DNA of 64,000 nt from Candidatus Wildermuthbacteria bacterium (GTDB lineage Bacteria; Patescibacteriota; Minisyncoccia; Minisyncoccales; UBA10102), in assembly GCA_016181405.1 (NCBI GenBank), contig JACOZJ010000002.1, forward strand, positions 138,608-202,607. The letters are read 5' to 3'. Position numbers and translations under genes: made by a program. Each line of letters starts with the position of its first letter. Position 1 is the stretch's first letter. The notes below the pieces were generated by a model. That model was not told the origin of the DNA, made no database searches, and was given only the letters and a program-made list of their open reading frames with translations. This document shows, piece after piece, positions 1,250 to 45,345 of the stretch.

Positions 1250-1690
1250 TTATGGAGTCCCGGACTCATCCAGGAATCTTGCTGCCAGCATGGCTGCCTG
1301 AGTGCGGTTGCTCACGTCCAGCTTTTTCATAATGCGCCCGACGTGAGTTTTGACCGTGTTCATCGAGATCACGAGTATCGCCGCGATCTCCTTGTTCTTC
1401 GCGCCCTGCTGCACCAGGCGCATAACCTCCAACTCTCGAAAAGAGAACGCCGGCGAACCATATGGAAGCCCACTCTCGCGCACAACCGGCAACTGCAGTA
1501 GCTTGCGCCCCAAGAGCGCAAGCGCCGTACGATTCTGTACACCTCCCATCTTCCACCTGATAGACCTTATATGGGCGCTAACCGTGGATTCAGAAATAAA
1601 GAGAGCTACTGCAATCTCTTTATCGCTCTTCCCCTGGCATACCAAGGCAAGGACTTCCAGCTCTCGCTTTCCCAATGCTTTCTTACTCAC
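1250..1690 (-). CDS. protein with two tandem LuxR/GerE-type HTH domains
   Basis: Two GerE-like units: RELEVLALVCQGKSDKEIAVALFISESTVSAHIRSI and RELEVMRLVQQGAKNKEIAAILVISMNTVKTHVGRI. I place the start at GTG 1690 (GAGGAGGG 6 nt upstream), because the ATG at 1717 lies inside the -10 box. Confidence 0.75.
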   Translation of the reverse strand: MSKKALGKRELEVLALVCQGKSDKEIAVALFISESTVSAHIRSIRWKMGGVQNRTALALLGRKLLQLPVVRESGLPYGSPAFSFRELEVMRLVQQGAKNKEIAAILVISMNTVKTHVGRIMKKLDVSNRTQAAMLAARFLDESGTP

Positions 1691-1715
1691 GACATACCCT
1701 CCTCGGAAATATGCC

Positions 1716-1744
1716 ATTGTAAGGGATATACTCTATTTATTCAA
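1716..1744 (-). promoter_or_regulatory. sigma70-type promoter
   Basis: Minus strand TTGAAT-N17-TACAAT. The -10 overlaps the first ATG of the ORF-track model. Confidence 0.55.
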
Positions 1745-1775
1745 GATTATCCTCAAAAACAAAGGGGGCGAGACC

Positions 1776-2288
1776 TTACGGCCCCAACCCCATTGCGTCT
1801 CCCACTAGAGACGCTTGGTAGCGGTTTTCTACTCCCATCTTTCGTATAAGTCCACTTACGTGGGCCTTGACGGTACTTTCTTCTATGCCCAAGCAGGAAG
1901 CAATTTCCTTGTTTCCTGCTCCCCTTCGGAGAAGCTTCAAAACTTCTACCTCGCGATCGAACAAAAGCCTCTTTGCCAATAGAGCTTTCTTAGAAAGTTC
2001 GTCAAGAACCTCTTTTACAAACTCTCTGGTAGAACGAGTCAGCTCATTCGCGAATCTTGGATCTAGCACAAGATTGCCATTTTCTCCTCGTTGGATTATA
2101 AGTCGTGCAAGTTCTCTTTTGGTGGCTAATCCCACTCCCGCAAGGACTCCGTCAACCCGGCCTTTTACTGTCTGTTCTGATCGCCCAAACATGTGGCCAA
2201 TGTCCGAATTAGACAATCCGACTGCGGCAAGGCATGCCATCTCCAGTTCCTCTGGCGCCCATTCTGTGCCGCTGTTTTCCGCAGACAT
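1776..2288 (-). CDS. protein with a degenerate plus a canonical LuxR/GerE HTH domain
   Basis: C-terminal REVEVLKLLRRGAGNKEIASCLGIEESTVKAHVSGLIRKM. The N-terminal ELEMACLAAVGLSNSDIGHMFGRSEQTVKGRV is a weaker second copy. Confidence 0.7.
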   Translation of the reverse strand: MSAENSGTEWAPEELEMACLAAVGLSNSDIGHMFGRSEQTVKGRVDGVLAGVGLATKRELARLIIQRGENGNLVLDPRFANELTRSTREFVKEVLDELSKKALLAKRLLFDREVEVLKLLRRGAGNKEIASCLGIEESTVKAHVSGLIRKMGVENRYQASLVGDAMGLGP

Positions 2289-2427
2289 GGCTTCCCCCCT
2301 CTTCAGATAAGGTGCTTGATATCTTCGTTAAAGATAACTCGTTCGAAAAAATAGGTAAACTCCTAAAATACTTTTCAAAAGAAAACAAAAAGCCGGAGTA
2401 CGCACTTGCGCTAACCCCCGACTTGCT

Positions 2428-3069
2428 TTAGTGGGCTACGGCCCCGATGCGTTGGATATGTTTCTCGGCGTACACAGCCAACTTGATACGTTTGTGCACG
2501 CCGATCTTTTGCATGAGGGCGCGCACGTGGGAATGTGCTGTGGCTTCCGAGATTCCCAATTCCTTCGCAATTTCTTTGTTGCTGCAGCCTCGCTGGACGA
2601 GGTATAACACCTCCGCCTCGCGGGGAGTCAACGTATTCCTGTTATGTGCAGGACTACCCCTCGCCAGCTCGTCAAAGAGTTGCTCAATCATCTCCTCTGG
2701 GAAAAAGGTGCCGCCAGAGGCAACATGCTTGACCACCTCAACCAGTAGTCCCACATCCGTATCCCGCCCGACATACCCGCAGACCCCGGCCTCTGCCATC
2801 TTCCGGGCAGACGCGAAACTACATTCCGAGAAAGGAGAGTACAAGACAACCCGTAGCTCGAGCATCTCGCGCTTGAGGTACTTCAGCGCATCCATGCCTG
2901 CCAGCTCGTTGCTCATGAGCATAACGTCTGGCTGGGCTTCCCTCACCCGAACACATGCTCCTAGGTACGATGCGGCTTCCACCGGTCGGACATTCGCTTT
3001 CGCCATGAGGTGCGCCAATCCCTCGCGCACCAGCGTACAACCTTCCGCGATCACAACTGTAATCGCCAT
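2428..3069 (-). CDS. NarL/FixJ-type response-regulator-like protein with a degenerate receiver domain
   Basis: C-terminal LuxR HTH (LTPREAEVLYLVQRGCSNKEIAKELGISEATAHSHVRAL). The receiver has EG where the acidic DD pair is expected and PDVMLMSNELAGMD where the phospho-Asp is expected. The start is taken at the ATG after GGAGGTGGGG. Confidence 0.75.
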   Translation of the reverse strand: MAITVVIAEGCTLVREGLAHLMAKANVRPVEAASYLGACVRVREAQPDVMLMSNELAGMDALKYLKREMLELRVVLYSPFSECSFASARKMAEAGVCGYVGRDTDVGLLVEVVKHVASGGTFFPEEMIEQLFDELARGSPAHNRNTLTPREAEVLYLVQRGCSNKEIAKELGISEATAHSHVRALMQKIGVHKRIKLAVYAEKHIQRIGAVAH

Positions 3070-3172
3070 ACCCCACCTCCAGCCAAAGTTCATGCTTCTC
3101 TATATCTATAAGACCAAAAATAAAGCTCTATGTCAAACTTCCATCGGTATGATATTGTGCTATACTGAATCC

Positions 3173-4102
3173 ATGAAACAGAGGTTTTATCTGGGCGTAG
3201 AGGGTGGAGCCACCAAAAGCACGGCCATTCTTGTAGACGAAACAAGTCACGTCCTAGGGGAACGCAAAGGCAAGGCACTCAATTACCAGTACCTTAGGGA
3301 GCGACGCGTCAAACAAAATCTCGCAGAGTTGCTTAATCCCTTATTGAGAAAAGTCCGCGGTGGCAATATCTCCGCGGTGTTTGGATTTGCAGGGCTCGAT
3401 ACCCCAAAAGACCAAACTGTATACACAAAGATAGCACATTCTGTATTGCCAAAAGGATCTTCTTTGCAGGCGGTAAACGATACAAAAATTGCCCTTGAAG
3501 TACGGTGCCCTAAAGAAAAAAATAGAATCCTTGTGATTTCCGGAACCGGCTCCAGCGTCTATGGAGAAAACGGAAAAACAAGCGCCAAAAGCGTGGGCTG
3601 GGGATTCCTTTTGGGAGACGAGGGAAGCGGGTATGAATTTGGGCTCAAAACCCTGAAGGCGGCTATGCGATCATTTGATAAGAGAGGAGAGAAAACAATT
3701 CTTGAAAAGCTTATTGTACAGAAGTTCGGCGGGAAAACAATGCTGGATGTTGTGCCCGCGATTTATGAGAAAGTAGGCAACGAAAAGCGCAATACGAAGC
3801 GTTATGTAGCCTCATTTGCGCCGCTTTTGGACGAGGCGATCCTCCAGAAAGACACCATGGCGCTCGCTATCCGAGAACAAGAAGTAGAAGAACTCTTTCA
3901 GGGCGTATCTGCTGTCGCAAAACAACTTGGTATTGCAAGCGCAGAATTTTGTCTTGGTACCACAGGATCTCTATGGAAAATGCCTGGATTTCAAGAACAA
4001 TTTAGAAAGAAGATAAAAAAACATTTTCCTAAGGTTTGCTTCTCTACAAACACTGACTCTAGTGTTTGGGGCGCTGTTTTGCTGGCAAAAAAATTGATCT
4101 AA
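3173..4102 (+). CDS. BadF/BadG/BcrA/BcrD-type ATPase, N-acetylglucosamine-kinase-like sugar kinase
   Basis: GVEGGATKS, ISGTGSSVYG and GWGFLLGDEGSGYEFG motifs. The ORF-track 5' extension (2447-3172) is antisense to the regulator gene, so I used ATG 3173, which sits 6 nt after an extended -10 (TGCTATACT). Confidence 0.8.
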   Translation: MKQRFYLGVEGGATKSTAILVDETSHVLGERKGKALNYQYLRERRVKQNLAELLNPLLRKVRGGNISAVFGFAGLDTPKDQTVYTKIAHSVLPKGSSLQAVNDTKIALEVRCPKEKNRILVISGTGSSVYGENGKTSAKSVGWGFLLGDEGSGYEFGLKTLKAAMRSFDKRGEKTILEKLIVQKFGGKTMLDVVPAIYEKVGNEKRNTKRYVASFAPLLDEAILQKDTMALAIREQEVEELFQGVSAVAKQLGIASAEFCLGTTGSLWKMPGFQEQFRKKIKKHFPKVCFSTNTDSSVWGAVLLAKKLI

Positions 4103-4165
4103 AGGAAAAGAAGAGCGGGCCACGATTTCTCGTGCCCGCTTTTGTTGTTGATGCGCAAACGCATC

Positions 4166-5398
4166 TTAAGGTGCAAAAAGGCGTTCAGCCTTCTTCCAGT
4201 CGATCAGTCCAGCTTGGTCGAGCTGGGTGACCGACGGGATAATCCGATCGTTGCGCACCTCTTCTGGAACAATGGGTTCCTCGGTGGATGGGATCCACCC
4301 CATGACGATTGGCCTCGCCATGAGTGTATTGTTGAGGCGAGTGATCGTCTCAACGGTCCACGTATCAAGCGCTGATGTTTCTTCGAAAGGGAGCATCAGC
4401 AAGAAGTTGGAGATCTGCTGCTGCATAATCGACTCTTTCCTGTCGTTGTTTGCAGCATCGAGCCGCGGGTTCGGGTTCCCCACCTGGACAACCGCATCAA
4501 CTCCTGGCGGCAAATGACACGCGCAGTAGTCCTCGGCGTACAAGGAGGTAACCGTCTCCTCCAGATAGCTCGTCGCAAATGGCCGGCGCATCGCAAGATC
4601 CCACCTAAGGACAAATTCTCCAGTGATCATCCACTTGTGCCCGCCAAGACGATAGCAGATTTCCTTTGCTCGCCTTCTTATTGCCGGGTCGATGCGCTCC
4701 GACCCAGCGACGCTATCAAGCATCCAGCGAGCGGTCATACATCGCTCGTTGGTACGACCAAACTTGGCCATTTTGATGTACTGGGCATCGGGCTTGGTTA
4801 CGATTCCGTACCCGAGGTATTCCCAGCACTGATAGCGGCGGAACTCTGCTATCTCTGCATCATTCTGGCCAATCCAAGCGGGTTTCCGGCCACCGCACTT
4901 CGCAGTAATATACCAATAGAGGTACCCTGCAAGAACTGCAACTCCCTTTCCTCGTGGTCGATCCCTCAAGTTAAGGATGGGGAGTAGCCTGTTCCAATCA
5001 AGGATATCAAGGATACCGTCGCTGCATGCAAGGCGCACACCCTTCTTGCCGTAGCGGCGCACTTCCTCGAGGGCATCTTCGTCGCTGCCGTTGTCCATGA
5101 CGAGAACGGATCCCGGCGTCACTCTATACTTCTTTACGAGTGTCGTGAGGAGCGGCCGAATGACCGGTCCATTCTCGCGCATTGGGACGACGAGCCCCAA
5201 GCTTCCATCGCGCAGAAGACGTCTGATCGCACTACTGCACTCTTGAAGATTTCCGTTCTTCGGCGTGAGGTAGCCACGGGCGAGCTCTACGCGCAGACGT
5301 TCCAAACTTCCATTGATGCTGGCGTTTTCATACGCCAGCGCGACGCGCTCTGCGTCTACTCCGTGCTGAAGCTTCAGATCATCATCCTTCATGGTCAC
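4166..5398 (-). CDS. GT-A retaining glycosyltransferase, mannosyl-/glucosyl-3-phosphoglycerate-synthase-like
   Basis: By eye it aligns to MPGS/GpgS blocks: VVPMRENGPVI, VLVMDNGSDED, RPRGKGVAVLAG, IGQNDAEI, ITGEFVLRWDLAMRRPFATSY. The gene is GC-richer than its neighbours. Confidence 0.5.
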   Translation of the reverse strand: MTMKDDDLKLQHGVDAERVALAYENASINGSLERLRVELARGYLTPKNGNLQECSSAIRRLLRDGSLGLVVPMRENGPVIRPLLTTLVKKYRVTPGSVLVMDNGSDEDALEEVRRYGKKGVRLACSDGILDILDWNRLLPILNLRDRPRGKGVAVLAGYLYWYITAKCGGRKPAWIGQNDAEIAEFRRYQCWEYLGYGIVTKPDAQYIKMAKFGRTNERCMTARWMLDSVAGSERIDPAIRRRAKEICYRLGGHKWMITGEFVLRWDLAMRRPFATSYLEETVTSLYAEDYCACHLPPGVDAVVQVGNPNPRLDAANNDRKESIMQQQISNFLLMLPFEETSALDTWTVETITRLNNTLMARPIVMGWIPSTEEPIVPEEVRNDRIIPSVTQLDQAGLIDWKKAERLFAP

Positions 5399-5445
5399 GT
5401 CTCTATCTCCTTCCGCAACGCTCTGCGCTGCTAAATTGTAGGGTG

Positions 5446-6597
5446 CTATGGAATCCGGAAAGGATTGTTTCCGGACTTTGCTTCAGATATCATTTGTCCC
5501 ACAAGCAGGTTCCAACTCACAAAGTTTGGAGCCGCCAACGGTTTTCCGGTGTCTGCGTTATAATTCTCGTGCATCCCACCGGACCTTTTGATATCTTCCA
5601 AGCAAAGCCTGGAAATAATCACTGCGAGGCGTTGCGCCTCTCGCTGAAATCCGTAATTCAAAAGCGCATGCATTGTCAAATAATTTACGATCGGCCACAC
5701 GGGTCCCTGCCAGTTTGAATAAGGTTTTATCGTATTCGCTTGGTTATAATCTGGATCGTCCTTCGACAAACATCGTACCCCATATCTTGCCCAAAGGTGT
5801 TTTGGATTCAAGATATATCGCTTTACCATCTGCCTTCCCCGTACTTGAGGAACTATGCCAGCCCATAAAGGTATGACGTTCGAGTAGGTAACACGTTTCA
5901 CGAATTCCCCTGTTTTTCGATCGCGATTATAGAAGATTTCGGCTTCTTTATCCCAAAGATGTTTAAGAATTGCTCTCTTCAGCATTTCTGCTTTTTCCCG
6001 ATATTTCTGGACATCTTTTCTCTTTTTTAAGCGCTTGGCAAGAAATGCAAGAGCAAGATATTCCCGATAAAGAAATATATTAAGATCTGCGGCTAAAATG
6101 CTTCCGTTTTCATAACCATGCACCGCAAGATTATTGTCAGCGCCAGATTCCATTGCGTCATACCAACACCCCAATCCAAACTCTTTATCGAAGTAAACTT
6201 TCTCGCGATATTCTACTGCCTTTTTAAGCTTCTCCCAATACGAAAGTACCCAAAAGAAATCTTCTAGATATTTCGATGCAAAATAGCATCCCTGCGCAAG
6301 AAACGGCTTTATATGCTTCAATCTTCGATCGACCCCATCAGGAGTCAGGAGACCCGGCGTAAACCCAGTCAGCTGAACTTTTTCCAAATAATTTAACGCC
6401 CAGTTCTTCAGATAAATTGCTTCGGAAGGGATTTGTGAAGCTAACGCCATTCCTACAAAGAAACCGTCCCAATCCCATTGCTCTGCATACGGCCCTCCTG
6501 GCACAAGATAGTCGTGTTTAAGGAAACCTTGCGCGCGCCGCTTCACAAGAGCTTTCCTGTAATCAAGCTCTTTTTGCAATTGTTGTTCAAAATTCAT
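5446..6597 (-). CDS. (alpha/alpha)6-barrel glycoside hydrolase, GH63/GH37-like
   Basis: WDWDGFFVGMAL, AMESGADNN, NWQGPVWPIVNY and GMHENYNADTGKPL motifs. The start is moved to ATG 6597 (MNFEQQ), giving an 11-nt overlap with the upstream gene. Confidence 0.65.
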   Translation of the reverse strand: MNFEQQLQKELDYRKALVKRRAQGFLKHDYLVPGGPYAEQWDWDGFFVGMALASQIPSEAIYLKNWALNYLEKVQLTGFTPGLLTPDGVDRRLKHIKPFLAQGCYFASKYLEDFFWVLSYWEKLKKAVEYREKVYFDKEFGLGCWYDAMESGADNNLAVHGYENGSILAADLNIFLYREYLALAFLAKRLKKRKDVQKYREKAEMLKRAILKHLWDKEAEIFYNRDRKTGEFVKRVTYSNVIPLWAGIVPQVRGRQMVKRYILNPKHLWARYGVRCLSKDDPDYNQANTIKPYSNWQGPVWPIVNYLTMHALLNYGFQREAQRLAVIISRLCLEDIKRSGGMHENYNADTGKPLAAPNFVSWNLLVGQMISEAKSGNNPFRIP

Positions 6598-7405
6598 GCT
6601 TTTTTGTCGTTTGTCTTCTTTCGGGGAAACAAATCTGATTACGCACATTGCACCACTTGCCTTCAAACATATACCCTGCAAGCTTACCTTCTTTTGCCAA
6701 CTTCGGGAATATATCTTTTTCAAGCGACGCAATTTTCTCTTTGGGAATGTAATCGAAAATTTCCGGACTAAAACAGAAAATACCCGCTGAAATCACCCGC
6801 GAAACCCCTTCCTTTTCTTTTGGCTTTTCTGCAAAGGCAACAATTTTCTCTCCCTTCATCTCCACCGCCCCGTATAAAGAGGGGTCCTCAATGGAAGTTA
6901 AGGCAACCGTAGCCGTCGCATCTGCTTGTGCGTGATAGGCGGCAAAATCCACAAGGTCGAGTTCCACCACTACGTGGGAATATAATACAAAGAATAAATC
7001 GCCCCCCACAAATTTCTTTGCCGACAATACGGCGCGCGCAGTCCCAATTTTCTCTTCCTCCTGCAGCTGGTATGTAATTTTTAAGCCATACTTTGAGCCA
7101 TCGCCTAAAGTTTTTTGTGCTTCTTTCTCACCCTTATGGAGCGAAAGGACAACTTCTTTTATGCCGTGCGTTCGCAAAAGCTCTAACCCATGCTCAATTA
7201 CCGGCTTGCCTTCGAAAGAAGTAGTACAAACAAAATCTTTATGCCCTGCGATAATAAGGGCTTTTTGTACATTGGCGCCAAGCGCTTGGTTCAAAAAATA
7301 CTCGATGGCGTGCGAACGGTTCCGAATAGTCTTCCCGTCTATCGCGCGGTCAAGTCTTTTTAAGATGTCGTTTTTGAGGGTTATGGCAATTTTACTGCGC
7401 TGCAT
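6587..7405 (-). CDS. ribbon-helix-helix (CopG/NikR-like) domain fused to a sugar-phosphate nucleotidyltransferase-like domain
   Basis: The N-terminus SKIAITLKNDILKRLDRAIDGKTIRNRSHAIEYFLNQAL has an RHH pattern. The remainder has an NTP_transferase-like layout (GTARAV, EKDIFPKLAKEGKLAGYMFEGKW), but the GxGTRL signature is degenerate (IIAGHKDF). ATG 7438 lies inside the -10 box, so I use 7405. Confidence 0.6.
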   Translation of the reverse strand: MQRSKIAITLKNDILKRLDRAIDGKTIRNRSHAIEYFLNQALGANVQKALIIAGHKDFVCTTSFEGKPVIEHGLELLRTHGIKEVVLSLHKGEKEAQKTLGDGSKYGLKITYQLQEEEKIGTARAVLSAKKFVGGDLFFVLYSHVVVELDLVDFAAYHAQADATATVALTSIEDPSLYGAVEMKGEKIVAFAEKPKEKEGVSRVISAGIFCFSPEIFDYIPKEKIASLEKDIFPKLAKEGKLAGYMFEGKWCNVRNQICFPERRQTTKKHEF

Positions 7406-7433
7406 AGGGGGAGCTCTCAAATTATCATACTTT

Positions 7434-7461
7434 ATCATACTTTTTCCAAAACTCTTGTCAA
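7434..7461 (-). promoter_or_regulatory. sigma70-type promoter
   Basis: Minus strand GGGGGTTGACA-N16-TATGAT. Confidence 0.6.
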
Positions 7462-7474
7462 CCCCCTTTTATTC

Positions 7475-7502
7475 TTGACTAGTTATCCACAGGTGATAGT
7501 AT
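7475..7502 (+). promoter_or_regulatory. sigma70-type promoter (divergent)
   Basis: TTGACT-N16-TAGTAT. The -10 overlaps ATG 7501. Confidence 0.5.
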
Positions 7503-9999
7503 GAAAAGCAATCTCCGGGAGCCTATCCCGGACTCTATGCAACAAACAAAATCTCCTTCTGAACCTCAAGACGACTTACGCAATAAGCATCTCCTTGTAG
7601 TAAACTCCGGATACCGAAGAAAAGAATTTATTCTCAAGCGTATCCAAGAACTTGGCTGCAATATTATCCTCTTGAACAAAGAGAGGAATTGGGCGCAAAA
7701 ATACGTAGATTCTTTTATTCTTGCGGACACAAACAATCACTCAGAAAGCCTCGAAGCTGTAAAAAAATACGCCGAGCATAGCCCTATTGATGGCGTTATT
7801 ACTTTTTGGGAAGACGACGTGCTGCTTTGCGCCAAAATCGTGGATATGCTTGGTCTCCCCGGTATCCCCTACCGAGTAGCGAGAGTGGCAAGAAATAAAT
7901 ATCTTTTCCGGGATTTCTGCAAAGAGGCCGGGCTCCCAACACCTCAACACCGTACTATTTCCTCGCAGGCCGATGTTGATTTCGTGATAGAACACTTTAA
8001 CTTTCCGGTTATAGCCAAACCAGTATACGGCTCAAGTTCGGCTTTAGTAGTGAAGATAGAGAAGAAACGAGATCTCCAAAAAATAATCCGGTATATTTCA
8101 GAGAACATTTCAGAAAAAATGGAATCTGCTTTGATGGCAGGATCTCAAATCTTTGTAGAAGAATATCTAGACGGACAAGAGGTGGATATTGATATGCTCG
8201 TCCAAAATGGAAAGGTAAAATTTCACTCCATCACCGATAACGAACCGACCGACGAGCCGTTCTTCATTGAAGTCGGAGACTCCATACCCTCAAGTCTCTT
8301 GGAAGATAGCCAGCAAAAGCTGTTCGAAATGGCATCGGAAACGCTTGAAAAACTGGGAATCCAGCAGGGATGTATACACTTTGAAGCAAAGTGGACCAAG
8401 AGAGGCCCTTTCCCCATTGAGGTAAACCTTCGCATGGGCGGAGACTATGTGCACTCTTTGGTGAAAGGATGTTGGGGTGTGGATCTTGTGGAATACGCGG
8501 CAAAAATCGCTTTGGGCTTATATATTAAGCCAGAAAAACCTACTCAACCCTTACAGTATCTTAGGGGACAGTGTTTTCTTTCCGATTATTCTGGCGTTCT
8601 TGTCGAATTAGACGTCGACGAAGAACTCTACAAAAAACAGTATTTCGAACAGTTCTACTTTCTGAAAGAAGTGGGAGACCCGGTACTTGTACCTCCCGAA
8701 GGCTATGAATACTTAGGATGGGTAGTCGTGAAAGGAGAAAGCCCTGTGGTCGCGCAAAATAATCTAGAGGAGGCGCTCGAATGTGTCCGCTATACCGTGG
8801 CGAAATATCATCCCACTTCCTCGGTAGGTAAAACTATCAGGAAAACCCCTCTCTCCTTAGCTTCCTTTGCACGAGAACAAATTAAAGCTTCCGCATCTGT
8901 AGAAAGAGTGAAAGCCTTCAAAAAAGAAGGGCTCCACGTGGGAGTACTCTGCAATATCTATACCAAGGAAACTTCGCAAAATCCTGTGGAGAAAGAAGCA
9001 GAAGAAGATATTACTACCTCCGCGATTCAAATAAAAAACGCTCTTGAAAAGAAAGGGCACACCGTGGAGCTCTTCAACATGAATCAGCTTCTCCCCACAA
9101 TAAACCGTCTCGCGAGAAGAGACGTGGATATTGTGTTTAATGCTTGCGAGCGAATCAACAACTCCAGTCTCCTCAAACCCCATGCTTCGGCAATATTGGA
9201 TATTTTAAATATTCCCTATACAGGATCCAACCCGGTCGCGAGAGCCATTAGCATTGATAAAATCATAACAAAGAAAATTCTTAAGTATCACGGCATCCCC
9301 ACTCCGGAATTCGACTATCTTTTTTCTGTTGACGACAAAATTAATCCCGAACTGGAATACCCCCTTATTGTAAAGCCCGCAAACACCGACGACAGCATCG
9401 GAATCACTCAAAAATCAGTAGTTACCAACGAACAAAAACTCTATGCGCAAGTAAAAGAAATCATCACGGTATACAAGAGGCCAGTGCTTGTGGAAGAGTT
9501 CATCCAGGGGTCAGAGCTCGACGTGGGAGTTATTGGAAACCGCGGCAACATCCGTGTACTCCCCATCGAACGCACTCTCTTCAATAAACTACCACGCGGA
9601 AAATGGGGAATTTATTCTTACGAAGACAAATGGGGAGAAGGAAATATTCATGATTACTTCACAGTTGAATCGCCTGCTAGGATCCCCAAAAAGCAAATGC
9701 AGCTTGTTTCGGAAATCGCCATAGACGTATTCAACGCGCTCGGCTGCCACGACTATGCAAGAGTCGAGATGCGCATGGACGAACAAGGCAATATCTATGT
9801 CATCGAGCTGAATGCCCACCCCACCCTGGAAGAAGGAAGCTATTTTGGAAGAGTCGGGAAAAAACTCGGGCTTTCATTCGGCGATATTCTGCAGGAAATT
9901 ATTGAAGCAGCCGCGGGACGCTACGAAAACAAACCTCCTTTTTATCATCTTCAAGGAGGTATCGAAATCCCTCTTGAGACTATTCCACCGACAAAGTAA
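7501..9999 (+). CDS. fusion of two ATP-grasp ligase modules (L-amino-acid-ligase-like N-half, D-Ala-D-Ala-ligase-like C-half)
   Basis: N-half: FPVIAKPVYGSSSALV, IFVEEYLDGQEVDIDMLV, IEVNLRMGGD. C-half: YPLIVKPANTDDSIGI, VLVEEFIQGSELDVGVIG, YARVEMRMDEQGNIYVIELNAHP. The start may be ATG 7537 if the promoter call is right. Confidence 0.75.
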   Translation: MKSNLREPIPDSMQQTKSPSEPQDDLRNKHLLVVNSGYRRKEFILKRIQELGCNIILLNKERNWAQKYVDSFILADTNNHSESLEAVKKYAEHSPIDGVITFWEDDVLLCAKIVDMLGLPGIPYRVARVARNKYLFRDFCKEAGLPTPQHRTISSQADVDFVIEHFNFPVIAKPVYGSSSALVVKIEKKRDLQKIIRYISENISEKMESALMAGSQIFVEEYLDGQEVDIDMLVQNGKVKFHSITDNEPTDEPFFIEVGDSIPSSLLEDSQQKLFEMASETLEKLGIQQGCIHFEAKWTKRGPFPIEVNLRMGGDYVHSLVKGCWGVDLVEYAAKIALGLYIKPEKPTQPLQYLRGQCFLSDYSGVLVELDVDEELYKKQYFEQFYFLKEVGDPVLVPPEGYEYLGWVVVKGESPVVAQNNLEEALECVRYTVAKYHPTSSVGKTIRKTPLSLASFAREQIKASASVERVKAFKKEGLHVGVLCNIYTKETSQNPVEKEAEEDITTSAIQIKNALEKKGHTVELFNMNQLLPTINRLARRDVDIVFNACERINNSSLLKPHASAILDILNIPYTGSNPVARAISIDKIITKKILKYHGIPTPEFDYLFSVDDKINPELEYPLIVKPANTDDSIGITQKSVVTNEQKLYAQVKEIITVYKRPVLVEEFIQGSELDVGVIGNRGNIRVLPIERTLFNKLPRGKWGIYSYEDKWGEGNIHDYFTVESPARIPKKQMQLVSEIAIDVFNALGCHDYARVEMRMDEQGNIYVIELNAHPTLEEGSYFGRVGKKLGLSFGDILQEIIEAAAGRYENKPPFYHLQGGIEIPLETIPPTK

Positions 10000-43565: not shown

Positions 43566-44579
43566 TCAAAATTTTGGGGGAATGGTTTTGGGCAAAATGG
43601 GAACTTCTCCCGTAGAAACGACTGCTTGCCTTACTCCGGGCAAAGCCCGTATTTCATCCTCCACAAATGCCTCTATGTTTTCCAGGTTTCGCGCGAGCAA
43701 CCCCACGGTAAGATTGTATGCTCCCGTAATCTTTGCCAAATGGTACACTTCCTGACACTTCTCAAGCTTTTCAATTAGTTGTTCGAGGGTTTTCCTATCT
43801 GCCTCAACATTGATTTGGGCCGCTATAGTATAAAATTGATCGGCCTGCAAAGAAGCATATACCCGTATAAGTTTTTCTTTCAGAAGTTTGTCGACTCTAT
43901 TCTTCACTGCCACAGAGCTCAAGCGCAGCTTCTTGGCAACTTCAGTAAAAGATTCCCTGCCGTTTTGCGCCAAGTACTGAATAAGCTTCAAGTCTATGGC
44001 ATCGAGCTCTTCTAACCCCCAAATCGCCTCTGCGGAATATTGCGCTACGGCAAAATCAGCCATTCCTGTCCGGTCAAAAAAGCAAGCGAACTTAATATCT
44101 TTGATATTCCACTCCTTCTTTTTCATTCGGACAGCCTCCATGGAACGTTTGTATGCCTTTCCTGTTACGATATCGTTGTTCACGATGAGTACTTTTCTTC
44201 CGCGCACCAATTTTTCGTCGAGATCTGCCCCGTCATCATCCATTGTGGCAAGAACCATATTGGTCTTTTTCCTTTTCTTTAACCATGCAACGAGCGCCTC
44301 GCCATAAAATATGCCCTCGGGCCGCAAACAAAGAATGCAAACATCATCCTTCCATAAATAGGCCTCGATGTCCTTCCCGACCGTATCAACAAACTTTTTG
44401 AGCGTTTCGAATTCTAAAAGATTGACCATGCGAAAATGTGGCAGAGTTTCTTTACGTAAATTATACACGATTCCTGGCAAAAGGAAAGCATTGACAAGAA
44501 TAGACAAACGGTGTTCGCTTAAGTCAGTACGTACCTCGAGGAGCGTTGCTATGGTAATCCTGTCAGCCGATCCGTCCAT
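43566..44579 (-). CDS. phosphoribosyltransferase-like domain fused to an Lrp/AsnC-type regulator (HTH + RAM)
   Basis: C-half: LDAIDLKLIQYLAQNGRESFTEVAKKLRLSSVAVKNRVDKL plus a RAM-like domain. N-half: a type I PRT pattern with GRKVLIVNNDIVTGKA (NN in place of the acidic pair). Confidence 0.7.
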   Translation of the reverse strand: MDGSADRITIATLLEVRTDLSEHRLSILVNAFLLPGIVYNLRKETLPHFRMVNLLEFETLKKFVDTVGKDIEAYLWKDDVCILCLRPEGIFYGEALVAWLKKRKKTNMVLATMDDDGADLDEKLVRGRKVLIVNNDIVTGKAYKRSMEAVRMKKKEWNIKDIKFACFFDRTGMADFAVAQYSAEAIWGLEELDAIDLKLIQYLAQNGRESFTEVAKKLRLSSVAVKNRVDKLLKEKLIRVYASLQADQFYTIAAQINVEADRKTLEQLIEKLEKCQEVYHLAKITGAYNLTVGLLARNLENIEAFVEDEIRALPGVRQAVVSTGEVPILPKTIPPKF

Positions 44580-45345
44580 TCGTTACATCCTCGTGGACTT
44601 AGACGGTACCACCTTCCCAACCGAGGGCCCTCTGCCGGAAGATTTCTACGAGCACCTTAGCATCTTCTCGCAGCTCATCGAGAGAGCGAATAGGGGAGAA
44701 TTTCCGAAGATCGGCTTCTGTACGGGCCGAGAGCTGAATTACGTCGAGGGTGCAACAAGAACTCTAACCCTACCGGATGGCTGGTCAGTACTGGAGAATG
44801 GGCTGTTTATTTACAACCTAGCAACAGGAGCACGAGTAAATCACCCACTCTTGACCCCAGAAGTTAGGGCTGTATTCCAAAAAATCCGGGAGAGAATGTG
44901 GATCATTGCCTACCGCTTTCCCGATCTAGAGGCATACCTCAAAAAAGAGGTGCACGTAGCGCTGGAGCGGCGCAATCGTTGGATTAACCTCGCAGAGTAT
45001 GTCGCTCCGATCGAAGAAATACTCATAGAATTCAAGGAACAGATGGACGTGGTTTGCTCGGGCCACGCCATCGACTTGCTCGTCAAGGGCATCAACAAGG
45101 GCTCTGGGCTACAGGAGCTGTGCGATTGGAGCGGCATATCTCCTGAAGAGGTTCTTATCATTGGAGATTCTCCCAACGACTTTCCCGCGATGGAGCTTGC
45201 AGGATCTATAGGATGCCCCTCCAACGCCGACAAAGGATGCAAGGAGTTTGTACGCAACAAGGGCGGACATGTTTCACTCCTCCCTTATGTGGTGGGAGTA
45301 GTGGATATCATCAGGCACTACCTCCCAAACGCTCGACAAGCCTGA
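44551..45345 (+). CDS. HAD-IIB (Cof/sugar-phosphatase-like) hydrolase
   Basis: ILVDLDGTT motif I, IIGDSPNDFPAMELAG motif IV, and a cap between them. The start at ATG 44551 gives a divergent 29-nt overlap with the neighbour's 5' end. Confidence 0.75.
   Translation: MVILSADPSIRYILVDLDGTTFPTEGPLPEDFYEHLSIFSQLIERANRGEFPKIGFCTGRELNYVEGATRTLTLPDGWSVLENGLFIYNLATGARVNHPLLTPEVRAVFQKIRERMWIIAYRFPDLEAYLKKEVHVALERRNRWINLAEYVAPIEEILIEFKEQMDVVCSGHAIDLLVKGINKGSGLQELCDWSGISPEEVLIIGDSPNDFPAMELAGSIGCPSNADKGCKEFVRNKGGHVSLLPYVVGVVDIIRHYLPNARQA

What the first reader, a model, noticed from the sequence alone, without database searches (positions are those of the whole stretch)
3173..7461. Glycoside cluster: sugar kinase, MPGS/GpgS-like glycosyltransferase, GH63-like hydrolase and an RHH-nucleotidyltransferase-like fusion
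This region holds four adjacent genes: a BadF-type sugar kinase, a GC-rich retaining GT-A enzyme, a GH63/GH37-like (alpha/alpha)6 hydrolase, and an upstream gene with an unusual fusion.

The glycosyltransferase blocks align by eye with mannosyl-/glucosyl-3-phosphoglycerate synthases. The hydrolase class includes the mannosylglycerate/glucosylglycerate hydrolases.

The upstream gene fuses a CopG/NikR-like ribbon-helix-helix to a sugar-phosphate nucleotidyltransferase fold whose GxGTRL signature is degenerate (IIAGHKDF). That fusion looks like a ligand-sensing transcription factor built from an enzyme fold, analogous to the NikR architecture. It would control a synthase/hydrolase pair for a glyceryl-glycoside-type solute. 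Such a pathway would be unexpected in a reduced genome, and the synthase looks horizontally acquired.
Basis: partly seen in the sequence, partly recalled or inferred. Interest (0 to 1): 0.58.

Follow-up and report, generated by a model that had tools for sequence, protein, structure and literature searches.

The report
Dead-enzyme repressor controlling a sugar-glycoside operon
A tiny-genome (Patescibacteria) bacterium carries an operon whose first gene fuses a NikR-like DNA-binding head to a catalytically dead sugar-nucleotide enzyme, which very probably acts as a sugar-sensing repressor of the glycoside hydrolase and the previously unclassified glucosyl-/mannosyl-phosphoglycerate-synthase-like transferase that follow it.

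Summary
The four genes are real and sit at the stated coordinates. They are a BadF/NagK-type kinase (3173-4102 +), a 408-aa glycosyltransferase (GT, 5392-4166 -), an MGH1-like GH63 hydrolase (GH, 6597-5446 -) and an RHH-nucleotidyltransferase fusion (7405-6587 -).

The GT matches no Pfam, NCBIfam or PDB sequence. Its confident model's 49 best PDB matches are all MPGS or GpgS.

The RHH is supported by profile matches to NikR. The nucleotidyltransferase (NTase) domain has lost its pyrophosphate loop and both metal-binding aspartates, yet evolves under strong purifying selection (dN/dS about 0.07).

New here:
- The fusion family occurs in 463 species genomes, almost all Patescibacteria.
- It carries a conserved operator, GTATGATAnAGTATGAT, on its own promoter. 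The half-site is the same as that of E. coli NikR.
- The operator was counted 74 times in the related loci, against 2.2 expected.
- GH-GT is a conserved gene pair (17 of 24 loci). In some genomes it has its own copy of the operator.

The product is unproven; mannosyl- or glucosyl-glycerate is the leading guess. Recent horizontal transfer of the GT is not supported.

Verdict: a new variant of a known kind, an RHH regulator with an enzyme-derived sensor. Moderately high interest.

The parts
7456..7461 (-). -35 hexamer TTGACA of the operon promoter
   Evidence: Best sigma-70-like match in 3000-7600: TTGACA-16-TATGAT, 11 of 12 positions. A TTGAC box precedes the heptads in most related loci.
7421..7440 (-). 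Operator: two tandem heptads, GTATGATAAAGTATGATAAT, with a 10-bp period. The first TATGAT doubles as the -10 element.
   Evidence: It is the only match in the 64-kb window. The same motif lies upstream of the fusion gene in 49 of 79 genome loci. TATGA-N5-TATGA was counted 74 times against 2.2+-1.7 expected. Unsearched flanking positions are conserved. The half-site equals the E. coli NikR half-site GTATGA (PMC7055735).
7268..7405 (-). Ribbon-helix-helix DNA-binding domain (aa 1-46) of the fusion protein
   Evidence: The family profile hits the E. coli NikR RHH at 1.6e-05 and CopG at 0.038. Pfam RHH_1 is found in 18 of 23 members. The model shows an N-terminal strand region, then helices 12-21 and 30-42. 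IRNRSHAIE is invariant.
6587..7267 (-). Catalytically dead sugar-1-phosphate nucleotidyltransferase-like domain (aa 47-272), the proposed ligand sensor
   Evidence: PF00483 at 1.3e-31, matching from profile position 28. Foldseek top hits are GDP-mannose pyrophosphorylases and RmlA. There is a 10-residue deletion of the GGxGxRxxPxT..PK loop, YGDV has become YSHV, and WFDIG has become WCNVRN. The EKPK and LEK sugar-phosphate contacts are kept. dN/dS is 0.03-0.08.
5446..6597 (-). MGH1-like GH63-type (alpha/alpha)6 glycoside hydrolase, 383 aa. Its start overlaps the stop of the fusion gene by 11 nt.
   Evidence: PF22422 at 127 bits (cut-off 27), plus Trehalase and GH63 C-terminal domain. The best PDB sequence match is TTHA0978 (entries 2Z07, 4WVA-C) at 2.1e-09; M. 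hassiacum entries 5OHC/6G3N (deposited only as 'hydrolase') match at 1e-4 level. The names Tt8MGH and glucosylglycerate hydrolase for these entries are from memory. It lies immediately upstream of the GT in 17 of 24 loci.
4166..5392 (-). Unclassified GT-A glycosyltransferase, 408 aa, a distant relative of GpgS/MPGS
   Evidence: No Pfam, NCBIfam or PDB sequence hit. The model has pLDDT 93.8. The top 49 Foldseek PDB hits are all MPGS or GpgS, at 1.7e-12 to 1.8e-08, and the next hit is at 5.9e-05. hhalign to M. tuberculosis GpgS gives 80% probability and aligns the motifs. Remote relatives bridge to the GpgS model PRK13915.
3173..4102 (+). BadF/NagK-type ASKHA sugar kinase, 309 aa, convergent with the GT
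   Evidence: PF01869 at 1.7e-31. The best NCBIfam match is N-acetylglucosamine kinase, at 82 bits, far below the cut-off of 370. A kinase occupies this position in 9 of 24 GT loci, BadF-type in 5 and ROK-type in 4.
7483..7491 (.). DnaA-box-like 9-mer TTATCCACA upstream of the -35. Membership in the system is uncertain.
   Evidence: It is the only copy in the window. An exact copy lies within 300 nt upstream of the fusion gene in 16 related loci, and beside displaced operators in 5 more.

Best explanation
The region is a small carbohydrate module of a Candidatus Wildermuthbacteria genome. It is controlled by a one-component repressor built from an enzyme.

**Shown by the sequence**
- A sigma-70-type promoter (TTGACA-16-TATGAT) carries two tandem NikR-type half-sites, GTATGAT, 10 bp apart. 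They cover the -10 element and the likely transcription start region.
- The first gene encodes a NikR-like ribbon-helix-helix fused to a sugar-1-phosphate nucleotidyltransferase fold.
- That fold has lost the pyrophosphate/NTP loop and both metal-binding aspartates. It keeps the sugar-phosphate contacts and is under strong purifying selection.
- The MGH1-like hydrolase (GH) overlaps the fusion gene's stop by 11 nt. The glycosyltransferase (GT) follows after about 50 nt.

**Inferred**
- RHH dimers bind the heptads and occlude the promoter. This autoregulates the fusion gene and co-regulates GH and GT.
- The dead enzyme domain binds a hexose-1-phosphate or NDP-hexose, and this changes DNA affinity.
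- The GT is a retaining GT-A enzyme of the GpgS/MPGS lineage. It transfers a hexose from an NDP-sugar to a small anionic acceptor, most likely 3-phosphoglycerate or glycerate.
- The GH hydrolyses the resulting glycoside (mannosyl- or glucosyl-glycerate type).
- The convergent kinase re-phosphorylates the released sugar.

In most other Patescibacteria the same fusion keeps its catalytic motifs. There it heads operons of glycolysis and nucleotide-sugar genes. The window therefore shows the sensor-only end state of a trigger-enzyme family.
For: **Gene calls and domains:**

**RHH:** the profile hits NikR at 1.6e-05 and Pfam RHH_1 in 18 of 23 members. The model shows the helix pair.

**Dead NTase domain:**
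- Loop deletion, D to H and D to N substitutions.
- The retained E229-K230 corresponds to VTC1 E195-K196, which contacts the Man-1-P phosphate.
- dN/dS is 0.07 at an unsaturated dS of 0.33.
- Precedent: the catalytically inactive GMPPA binds GDP-mannose (PMC11228364).

**Operator:**
- It is unique in the window.
- TATGA-N5-TATGA was counted 74 times against 2.2 expected in 1.21 Mb. Of these, 52 lie in the 1.3% of positions within 400 nt upstream of the fusion gene.
- Unsearched flanking positions are conserved.
- The half-site is identical to the E. coli NikR operator GTATGA-N16-TCATAC.
- The heptads overlap the best promoter in the region.

**Regulon link:** in L093 and L101 the GH-GT pair has its own -35 plus three heptads, although the gene before it is an ordinary NTase.

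**GT:** Foldseek top 49 hits are all MPGS or GpgS. The residues of the Asp134-Lys114-Glu232 network (Pereira 2008) correspond to the invariant or near-invariant D178, K149 and E259; K149 and E259 are placed by hhalign, D178 by my manual re-registration of the DxD strand. Transitive links reach GpgS-like proteins.

**GH:** PF22422, with the best PDB sequence match to TTHA0978.

**Gene order:** GH lies directly upstream of the GT in 17 of 24 loci, the fusion gene is nearby in 14, and a kinase in 9.
Against: - No binding or enzyme assay exists.
- The heptads overlap the -10 element, so part of their conservation could reflect promoter function.
- In the Wildermuthbacteria clade the beta-strand residues are K-x-A-x-T rather than the R-x-T-x-T of NikR and of most family members, yet the operator is unchanged.
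- The ligand is unknown.
- The GT fails the curated GpgS and MPGS models. It replaces the second Asp of DxD by Glu, the metal-binding His by Asp, and the acceptor-binding Thr by Asn. Donor and acceptor are therefore open.
- No cognate phosphatase is in the cluster. The HAD-IIB protein at 44368-45345 is generic.
- NagK-like kinases, GlmS/GlmU-like neighbours, and a PIG-L deacetylase beside divergent GTs hint at GlcNAc chemistry instead.
Confidence: 0.6

Rival explanations
1. The regulator part holds, but the GT/GH pair makes and breaks a different glycoside. One option is a GlcNAc- or GlcN-based small-molecule conjugate, analogous to the BshA/MshA then PIG-L steps of low-molecular-weight thiol synthesis. 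Other options are another alpha-glucoside or an envelope glycoconjugate.
For: - The kinase's best curated match is N-acetylglucosamine kinase.
- ROK kinases replace it in other loci.
- Operons headed by the fusion gene often hold GlmS, a GlmU-like NTP_transf_4/LbH protein and TrmB.
- Divergent GT relatives sit beside a PIG-L deacetylase, a PMT and a PAP2.
- The acceptor Thr187 of GpgS is Asn, and the metal-binding His258 is Asp.
Against: - All 49 best structural matches use 3-phosphoglycerate as acceptor.
- The partner hydrolase belongs to the MGH1/GH63 class. Its characterised members, from my own knowledge, cleave alpha-glucosides and alpha-mannosides including mannosyl- and glucosyl-glycerate, not GlcNAc glycosides.
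- Invariant basic residues (K207, K210, R213, R222, R270, R310) fit an anionic acceptor.
Confidence: 0.3
2. The GTATGAT repeats are only promoter elements (-10-like boxes) of a common Patescibacteria promoter type, or the site of another factor such as TrmB. The RHH then has a different target or role.
For: - The first heptad coincides with the -10 hexamer in the window.
- Single GTATGAT copies elsewhere in the window (8 against 3.6 expected) look like ordinary sequence or -10 boxes.
- TrmB genes share many of these operons.
Against: - The paired motif is almost confined to promoters linked to the fusion gene. Of 74 copies in 1.21 Mb, 52 lie upstream of it and most of the rest lie directly downstream of it.
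- Its position relative to the -35 varies, with spacers from 6 to 17 nt.
- It occurs as direct, inverted and triple arrays that keep the 10-bp register.
- The half-site equals that of NikR, the closest solved relative of this RHH.
- No TrmB gene lies in the 20 kb of the window that was clustered around the cluster.
Confidence: 0.07
3. The window's fusion protein is still an active pyrophosphorylase (a bifunctional trigger enzyme) that supplies the NDP-sugar donor for the GT.
For: - Most family members keep GGxGxRMRPFT..PK, YGDV and WFDxG, and sit in the same position before GH-GT (L002, L006).
- The overall fold is retained.
Against: - In the window and its clade the PPi/NTP loop is deleted by 10 residues.
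- Both residues at the positions of the conserved YGDV and WFDIG aspartates (metal ligands in RmlA, from my own knowledge) are replaced by His and Asn.
- Intermediate forms show stepwise loss (P0061-63, P0057).
Confidence: 0.04
4. The GT was recently acquired by horizontal transfer into this genome, as its high GC suggests, and its link with the neighbouring genes is accidental.
For: The GT has 55% GC and GC3 of 0.63, against 0.43-0.46 GC3 for the adjacent genes. It ranks third of 60 genes in the window for GC3.
Against: - The GH-GT order is conserved in 17 of 24 loci across distant lineages.
- The cluster is syntenic in close relatives (L087-L089, L009, L001).
- All sequence homologues come from Patescibacteria or unclassified metagenomes.
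- The GC3 excess recurs in 12 of 17 loci with five or more neighbouring genes, whatever the host composition, so it is a property of the gene family.
Confidence: 0.1

Closest known systems
NikR (nickel-responsive RHH repressor, E. coli)
   Same: - The N-terminal ribbon-helix-helix is the closest solved relative of this RHH (profile E-value 1.6e-05).
- Most family members carry R-x-T-x-T at the positions aligned to NikR R3, T5 and T7. That these are the NikR DNA-reading residues is from my own knowledge.
- The operator half-site GTATGA is identical.
- The architecture is the same: an RHH head followed by a C-terminal ligand-binding domain.
   Different: - The sensor is a sugar-1-phosphate nucleotidyltransferase fold, not the ACT-like nickel-binding tetramerisation domain.
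- Half-sites are tandem or inverted at a 10-bp register, not inverted with a 16-bp gap. This implies a different oligomer geometry.
- The ligand is presumably a sugar phosphate or NDP-sugar, not a metal.
PutA, BirA and NadR ('trigger enzymes': an enzyme fused to a DNA-binding domain; own knowledge)
   Same: A DNA-binding head is fused to a metabolic enzyme of the pathway it regulates. PutA also uses an RHH. NadR also carries a nucleotidyltransferase. Most members of the present family look catalytically competent and head their own operon.
   Different: The enzyme fold is different (sugar-1-P NTase, GT-A-like). The family appears confined almost entirely to Patescibacteria. In at least three lineages, including the window, the enzyme has become a pseudoenzyme.
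GMPPA (inactive paralogue of GDP-mannose pyrophosphorylase)
   Same: It is a catalytically inactive member of the same NTase family that still binds GDP-mannose and acts as a regulator (PMC11228364, PMC9168903). GMPPA also appears among the PDB hits.
   Different: GMPPA regulates by protein-protein allostery on GMPPB and has a left-handed beta-helix domain. The present protein has no beta-helix domain and carries a DNA-binding RHH instead.
GpgS (GT81) and MPGS (GT55): glucosyl-/mannosyl-3-phosphoglycerate synthases
   Same: - GT-A fold, with the best structural matches.
- Aligned motifs, by hhalign except the D-x-D strand, which I re-registered by eye: P..E nucleotide pocket, DxGSxD, GKG (K114), D-x-[DE], GR.[TN]E acceptor loop, GE[YF] (E232), PFA.GY..E and R-x-[HD].
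- Pairing with an MGH1/GH63 hydrolase fits a synthesis/hydrolysis pair.
   Different: - Sequence identity is only about 15%.
- It fails PRK13915 and PF09488.
- DAE replaces DxD, Asp replaces the metal-binding His, and Asn replaces the acceptor Thr.
- It has an extra helical N-terminus of about 65 residues and a C-terminal extension of about 100 residues.
- No phosphatase gene is adjacent.
Omega, CopG and Arc-type RHH repressors binding arrays of short repeats (own knowledge)
   Same: The operator is built of short (7-bp) units repeated in direct or inverted orientation with helical periodicity, and it overlaps the promoter.
   Different: Those repressors are small stand-alone RHH proteins without a sensor domain.

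Membership tests
Ribbon-helix-helix (CopG/NikR-type) DNA-binding domain | Sequence profile match to RHH families | tested here: met
   The N-terminal profile A3 hits the E. coli NikR RHH at 1.6e-05 and CopG at 0.038. Pfam RHH_1 is found in 18 of 23 members, best E-value 2.2e-05. For the single window sequence only weak NikR hits were found, at 7e-04.
Ribbon-helix-helix (CopG/NikR-type) DNA-binding domain | Beta-alpha-alpha topology | tested here: met
   The AlphaFold model (pLDDT 87) has an extended N-terminus at residues 1-11, then helices 12-21 and 30-42. The strand is unpaired because a monomer was modelled.
Ribbon-helix-helix (CopG/NikR-type) DNA-binding domain | Repeated short operator half-sites at the regulated promoter | tested here: met
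   GTATGAT-N3-GTATGAT lies at 7424-7440 and overlaps the -10 element. It is conserved in 49 of 79 loci, with 74 copies against 2.2 expected.
Ribbon-helix-helix (CopG/NikR-type) DNA-binding domain | Dimerisation and sequence-specific DNA binding | not testable with these tools
   Needs EMSA or footprinting, or a protein-DNA complex model.
NikR | C-terminal ACT-like nickel-binding tetramerisation domain | tested here: not met
   The C-terminal 226 residues are an NTP_transferase fold. NikR models match residues 16-58 only.
NikR | Operator GTATGA-N16-TCATAC | tested here: inconclusive
   The half-site is identical, but the arrangement differs: tandem or inverted at a 10-bp register.
Sugar-1-phosphate nucleotidyltransferase (PF00483) | Fold and family HMM above the cut-off | tested here: met
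   PF00483 scores 110 bits (cut-off 21.2), covering profile positions 28-229. Foldseek E-values reach 7e-20 against GDP-Man and UDP-Glc pyrophosphorylases.
Sugar-1-phosphate nucleotidyltransferase (PF00483) | N-terminal G-G-x-G-T-R-L-x-P-L-T...P-K pyrophosphate/NTP loop | tested here: not met
   The window has 'AGHKDFVCTTS' with a 10-residue deletion relative to intact family members.
Sugar-1-phosphate nucleotidyltransferase (PF00483) | Two metal-binding aspartates (the YGD and WxD motifs) | tested here: not met
   YSHV and WCNVRN in the window, against YGDV and WFDIG in intact members and FVLNSDV and FWMDI in VTC1.
Sugar-1-phosphate nucleotidyltransferase (PF00483) | Sugar-phosphate contacts (EKP; the Glu-Lys of VTC1 E195-K196) | tested here: met
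   EKPK at 193-196 and LEK at 228-230 are retained and aligned. Their roles are taken from PMC9168903.
GpgS/MPGS glycosyltransferases (GT81/GT55) | GT-A fold closest to solved GpgS/MPGS structures | tested here: met
   The top 49 Foldseek PDB hits are all MPGS or GpgS, at E 1.7e-12 to 1.8e-08 and TM (target-normalised) 0.52-0.73.
GpgS/MPGS glycosyltransferases (GT81/GT55) | Curated family models (NCBIfam PRK13915 GpgS, Pfam PF09488 Osmo_MPGsynth, PF00535) | tested here: not met
   There are no hits for the window protein. Only remote relatives reached by the family profile hit PRK13915, and below its cut-off.
GpgS/MPGS glycosyltransferases (GT81/GT55) | Asp134-Lys114-Glu232 network and nucleotide-pocket Pro50/Glu54 | tested here: met
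   K149, E259, P70 and E73 are invariant or nearly so and are aligned to GpgS by hhalign. D178 is invariant but was matched to Asp134 by my manual re-registration of the DxD strand, which hhalign misplaced. Roles are taken from PMC2581804.
GpgS/MPGS glycosyltransferases (GT81/GT55) | DxD metal motif and the His258 metal ligand | tested here: inconclusive
   D178-A-E180 (invariant) stands in place of DSD, by manual alignment. D312 (90% conserved) is aligned to His258 by hhalign. The replacements are plausible metal ligands but not the canonical ones.
GpgS/MPGS glycosyltransferases (GT81/GT55) | Acceptor-binding Thr187 (carboxylate of 3-phosphoglycerate) | tested here: not met
   The aligned residue is the invariant N215 in the motif GR.NE.
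GpgS/MPGS glycosyltransferases (GT81/GT55) | Transfer of Glc or Man from an NDP-sugar to 3-phosphoglycerate | not testable with these tools
   An enzyme assay is needed.
MGH1-like / GH63 hydrolases | Family HMM above the cut-off | tested here: met
   PF22422 scores 127.3 bits (cut-off 27), PF01204 scores 87.6 and PF03200 scores 73.
MGH1-like / GH63 hydrolases | Equivalog-level identity with glucosylglycerate hydrolase | tested here: not met
   NF047898 scores 41.9 bits against a cut-off of 550. TTHA0978 matches at 2.1e-09 over the C-terminal half only.
BadF/BcrA/NagK ASKHA kinases | Family HMM; equivalog NagK | tested here: inconclusive
   PF01869 scores 110 bits (cut-off 31.5), which is met. 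NagK_SO3507 scores 82 bits against a cut-off of 370, which is not met. The substrate is unknown.

The most novel reading that the evidence does not exclude
The RHH-nucleotidyltransferase fusion is an undescribed and widespread one-component repressor, largely confined to Patescibacteria (463 species genomes).

- It re-uses a NikR-type DNA-reading head and half-site (GTATGA) with a sugar-nucleotide enzyme as sensor.
- It governs central sugar metabolism in these ultrasmall bacteria: PFK, GAPDH, PGK, PGI, GlmS, nucleotide-sugar genes and the GH-GT pair.
- It has repeatedly evolved from a bifunctional trigger enzyme into a pure pseudoenzyme sensor.
- The GH-GT pair it controls defines a new GpgS/MPGS-related transferase family. 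That family would make a glycosyl-glycerate-type solute or carbon reserve not yet known in this phylum.
Probability: 0.4. Interest if true: 0.75.

Novelty: new variant of a known kind. Interest (0 to 1): 0.62.

Why it matters
Transcriptional regulation in Patescibacteria (the CPR) is, to my knowledge, little characterised.

- **A testable regulator.** The analysis gives a concrete regulator, its operator sequence and a candidate regulon that spans central sugar metabolism in hundreds of species. These can be tested with one purified protein and a 60-bp DNA fragment.
- **Enzyme-to-sensor evolution.** The family is a clear natural series from enzyme to pseudoenzyme sensor: intact, then loop scrambled, then loop deleted, then metal ligands lost. 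All of this happens under purifying selection.
- **Portability of a DNA-reading head.** A NikR-type RHH keeps its half-site while the sensor and the oligomer geometry change.
- **Annotation of a dark family.** A family annotated only as 'hypothetical protein' (266 cluster representatives among 1.84 billion) becomes a GpgS/MPGS-related glycosyltransferase coupled to an MGH1-type hydrolase.
- **A possible new pathway.** That pairing points to a synthesis/hydrolysis cycle for a small glycoside, as a compatible solute or carbon reserve, in organisms thought to have minimal metabolism.

Tried and rejected
- **Sequence-only classification of the GT.** Pfam, NCBIfam, phmmer and profile searches against PDB gave nothing beyond a sub-threshold GT-A N-terminal match. 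Structure prediction was needed.
- **Second operator at the kinase.** A GTATGAT lies at 3147-3153, 20 nt before the kinase start. It is single and is absent from the closest orthologous locus L087, so it is probably just a -10 box.
- **Other operator copies in the window.** None were found with up to 2 mismatches.
- **Cognate phosphatase.** The HAD-IIB protein at 44368-45345 passes only the generic HAD-IIB model. The mannosyl-3-phosphoglycerate phosphatase model scores 23 bits against a cut-off of 373. It remains a candidate only.
- **A second, intact NTase of this family in the window.** None was found.
- **Toxin-antitoxin reading (RHH antitoxin plus nucleotidyltransferase toxin).** Rejected. 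The NTase is the sugar-1-P pyrophosphorylase fold, not the Pol-beta type.
- **Antisense overlapping gene as the cause of the GT's high GC3.** The long antisense frame is the expected by-product of high GC3 (few TTA, CTA and TCA codons) and is not continuous.
- **Literature.** Searches for an RHH fused to a sugar nucleotidyltransferase, or for mannosyl-/glucosyl-glycerate in Patescibacteria, found nothing relevant.

Full report
**1. The observation**

The window comes from a Candidatus Wildermuthbacteria (Patescibacteria/CPR) genome. The glycosyltransferase (GT) protein is 100% identical to NCBI HYT49_00745.

The ORF map and domain scans confirm the four genes:
- **Kinase, 3173-4102 (+), 309 aa.** A BadF/BcrA-type ASKHA kinase (PF01869, 1.7e-31). 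Its best curated match is N-acetylglucosamine kinase, far below the cut-off.
- **GT, 5392-4166 (-), 408 aa.**
- **Hydrolase (GH), 6597-5446 (-), 383 aa.** An (alpha/alpha)6 hydrolase matching PF22422 (MGH1-like, 1.3e-36), plus Trehalase and GH63.
- **Fusion gene, 7405-6587 (-), 272 aa.**

The GH start overlaps the stop of the fusion gene by 11 nt. The GT follows the GH after about 50 nt. The kinase is convergent with the GT. The GT has 55% GC, against 43-44% for its two neighbours.

**2. The glycosyltransferase**

The GT has no hit in Pfam, NCBIfam or PDB sequences, either alone or as a 41-member family profile. Every homologue that carries a name is a 'hypothetical protein' from Patescibacteria.

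An AlphaFold model built on the family alignment is confident (pLDDT 93.8, pTM 0.92). Its 49 best Foldseek matches in the PDB are all mannosyl-3-phosphoglycerate synthases or glucosyl-3-phosphoglycerate synthases (E 1.7e-12 to 1.8e-08). The next fold appears at 5.9e-05.

hhalign of the family against M. tuberculosis GpgS gives 80% probability. The GpgS sequence was recovered from the PDB. The correspondences below come from that alignment, except the D-x-D pair. hhalign misplaced that strand, and I re-registered it by eye from the model's secondary structure.

| CPR family residue | GpgS residue |
|---|---|
| P70 / E73 | Pro50 / Glu54 |
| K149 (GKG motif) | Lys114 |
| D178-A-E180 (manual) | Asp134-Ser-Asp136 |
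| R213 / N215 | Arg185 / Thr187 |
| E259 | Glu232 |
| R310 / D312 | Arg256 / His258 |

Pereira et al. 2008 (PMC2581804) assign these GpgS roles:
- Asp136 is the Mg ligand.
- Thr187 contacts the acceptor carboxylate.

That His258 is a second metal ligand is from my own knowledge. The core catalytic apparatus of a retaining GT-A enzyme is therefore present. Both metal ligands are changed (Asp to Glu, His to Asp), and the acceptor Thr is Asn.

An exhaustive profile search of 1.84 billion cluster representatives found only 266 relatives (62 at E <= 1e-30). The most remote ones, at E 1e-9 to 1e-18, have GpgS (PRK13915) as their best curated match, below its cut-off. This is a transitive sequence bridge to GT81.

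I conclude that this is a new family in the GpgS/MPGS lineage, not a member of GT81 or GT55.

**3. The hydrolase and the gene pair**

The GH's best solved relative by sequence is T. thermophilus TTHA0978 (entries 2Z07, 4WVA-C; 2.1e-09). M. hassiacum entries deposited simply as 'hydrolase' (5OHC, 6G3N) also match, at the 1e-4 level. I recall these as the mannosylglycerate hydrolase Tt8MGH and the glucosylglycerate hydrolase; the names are not in the tool output.

In 24 loci that encode a GT relative, the GH lies immediately upstream of the GT in 17. The fusion gene is nearby in 14. A sugar kinase is nearby in 9, BadF-type in 5 and ROK-type in 4, which is a non-orthologous replacement at the same position.

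A divergent GT subgroup lacks the GH. It sits with a PIG-L deacetylase, an unknown 297-aa protein, a PMT and a PAP2.

**4. The fusion protein**

PF00483 matches only from profile position 28 onwards. A profile of the first 47 residues of 23 homologues hits the E. coli NikR RHH at 1.6e-05 and CopG at 0.038. Pfam RHH_1 is found in 18 of 23 members. The model (pLDDT 87) shows an N-terminal strand region, two helices, and then the NTase fold. Its best matches are GDP-mannose pyrophosphorylases and RmlA.

The fusion is not a curiosity of this genome. There are 408 protein clusters and 463 GTDB species genomes with a relative, almost all Patescibacteria.

Most members keep GGxGxRMRPFT..PK, YGDV and WFDxG. 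The window's clade (WIN, L001, L007-L009, L013, L087) differs as follows:
- It has a 10-residue deletion of the pyrophosphate loop.
- YGDV has become YSHV or YCHV.
- WFDIG has become WCNVRN.

Intermediates show stepwise loss. In P0061-63 and L011 the loop is scrambled. In P0057 and L015 the loop is deleted but YGDV is kept. Two other lineages have independently degraded the loop (P0148/P0159/P0161 and L090/L093).

The sugar-phosphate contacts are kept: EKPK, and E229-K230, which corresponds to VTC1 Glu195-Lys196. The dead domain evolves at dN/dS 0.03-0.08 (0.074 at dS 0.33 against L087). It is therefore functional but not catalytic.

GMPPA is a precedent. It is a catalytically inactive paralogue of the same enzyme family that binds GDP-mannose and regulates.

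**5. The operator**

The sequence between the -35 box and the start codon reads TTGACA-N15-GTATGATAAAGTATGATAAT (7461-7421, minus strand). The same arrangement appears upstream of the fusion gene in distant genomes.

Counts in 79 genome loci (1.21 Mb):
- TATGA-N5-TATGA occurs 74 times, against 2.2 +- 1.7 expected.
- 52 of these lie in the 1.3% of positions within 400 nt upstream of the fusion gene, in 49 loci.
- Most of the remainder lie just downstream of the fusion gene, in front of the next gene.

Positions not used in the search are conserved (G at -1 and +9; T and A after each pentamer). The consensus is GTATGATAnAGTATGATAaT. Arrays occur as direct pairs, inverted pairs (L001, L012, L029) and triples, and all keep the 10-bp register.

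The half-site is identical to that of the E. coli NikR operator, GTATGA-N16-TCATAC (PMC7055735). Most family members also carry R-x-T-x-T at the positions aligned to NikR R3, T5 and T7. That these are the residues that read the half-site in the NikR-DNA complex is from my own knowledge. The window's clade has K-x-A-x-T.

The heptads overlap the best promoter in the region (TTGACA-16-TATGAT, 11 of 12). Binding should therefore repress.

In L093 and L101 the GH-GT pair has its own -35 plus three heptads, although the gene before it is an ordinary NTase. This places GH-GT in the regulon independently of co-transcription.

**6. Wider context**

The fusion gene is typically the first gene of an operon. 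Those operons contain PFK, GAPDH, PGK, PGI/PMI, PfkB and ROK kinases, an IMPase-family phosphatase, a DUF6206 kinase-like protein, TrmB, GlmS and a GlmU-like NTP_transf_4 protein. GH-GT is one of several cargo sets, seen in 7 of 83 loci centred on the fusion gene.

**7. Mechanism, with status of each step**

Shown:
- The gene order and overlaps.
- The RHH domain.
- Loss of the catalytic motifs under purifying selection.
- A conserved NikR-type operator on the promoter.
- The structural kinship of the GT.
- The GH class.
- The GH-GT coupling.

Inferred:
- Promoter occlusion by RHH oligomers.
- Modulation by a hexose-1-phosphate or NDP-hexose bound in the dead active site.
- GT synthesis, and GH hydrolysis, of a glycosyl-(phospho)glycerate-type compound.
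- Recycling of the released sugar by the kinase.

The product is the weakest link. The acceptor residue differs, and no phosphatase is adjacent; the HAD-IIB protein at 44368-45345 is generic. GlcNAc-related neighbours allow a different donor.

**8. Horizontal transfer**

The GT's GC3 (0.63) is about 2 SD above the window mean and ranks third of 60 genes. The same excess recurs in 12 of the 17 loci that have five or more neighbouring genes (z from +1.8 to +6.5). GT GC3 stays at 0.55-0.74 while host GC3 ranges over 0.33-0.53, and the adjacent GH follows the host. The GH-GT order is conserved and all homologues are from CPR genomes. This argues against a recent foreign acquisition. The fixed composition itself remains unexplained.

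**9. Novelty**

Searches of the held literature found no description of an RHH fused to a sugar nucleotidyltransferase, and none of mannosyl- or glucosyl-glycerate pathways in Patescibacteria. Database names are generic, such as 'nucleotidyltransferase family protein' and 'hypothetical protein'.

In kind, this is an RHH one-component regulator or trigger enzyme, as with NikR and PutA. What is new is the sensor fold, the operator architecture, the enzyme-to-pseudoenzyme series, and the GT family.

Noticed in passing
window 7483-7491; also L002 about 11653 and many loci among L007-L086: A perfect DnaA-box-like 9-mer (TTATCCACA/TGTGGATAA) occurs once in the 64-kb window, about 20 nt upstream of the -35 of the fusion-gene promoter. 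In 1.21 Mb of related loci there are 50 exact copies. Of these, 16 lie within 300 nt upstream of the fusion gene and 5 lie beside displaced operators. At least two (L002, L006) lie just upstream of the TrmB-GlmS genes, and several more sit at similar offsets. Whether DnaA or another factor binds it is unknown.
   Followed up: partly
window 4166-5392 and GT orthologues in L087-L093, L095, L101, L001, L002, L006: The GT gene keeps a GC3 of about 0.55-0.74 whatever the host composition (neighbour GC3 0.33-0.53), while the adjacent GH follows the host. At about 45% protein identity, synonymous sites should have equilibrated. This points to selection on composition or to repeated intra-CPR transfer. 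It is unexplained.
   Followed up: partly
L004 8001-11050; L096, L100, L103: A divergent subgroup of the GT family (34-40% identity) lacks the GH partner. It is followed by an unknown 297-aa protein and a PIG-L-family deacetylase, with a PMT and a PAP2 upstream. This is reminiscent of GT-plus-deacetylase steps in thiol-cofactor or glycoconjugate synthesis.
   Followed up: no
proteins P0191, P0237, P0243, P0245, P0267, P0273, P0274, P0292: Remote relatives of the GT domain occur as the C-terminal part of 750-1100-aa proteins. The N-terminal regions of the three scanned (P0191, P0243, P0267) have no significant Pfam match.
   Followed up: partly
window 7501-9999 (+): An 832-aa double ATP-grasp protein (an L-amino-acid-ligase-like half plus a D-Ala-D-Ala-ligase-like half) is transcribed divergently from the operator region. 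It is syntenic in the close relatives L001, L007, L008, L013 and L087. Co-regulation through the shared 95-bp intergenic region is possible but untested.
   Followed up: no
window 1250-3093 (-): Three consecutive LuxR/FixJ-type HTH regulator genes lie next to the kinase: two tandem-HTH proteins of 155 and 170 aa, and a 221-aa response-regulator-like protein. The last is notably GC-rich (57% GC in the 2501-3000 bin).
   Followed up: no
loci L017, L020, L026, L045, L058 and others, gene directly after the fusion gene: In 19 loci the gene after the fusion gene encodes a 330-aa protein-kinase-like protein (weak DUF6206 match, with a D-x-K-P-x-N motif). It may be an anomeric sugar kinase feeding the nucleotidyltransferase. 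It is uncharacterised.
   Followed up: partly
L007, L008, L012, L016, L029: An HAD-IIB hydrolase family (Hydrolase_3) follows the fusion gene in several loci, sometimes together with a LOG-like protein, a PGI/PMI and a ROK kinase. It could be a phosphomannomutase-like enzyme or a glycosyl-phosphoglycerate phosphatase.
   Followed up: partly
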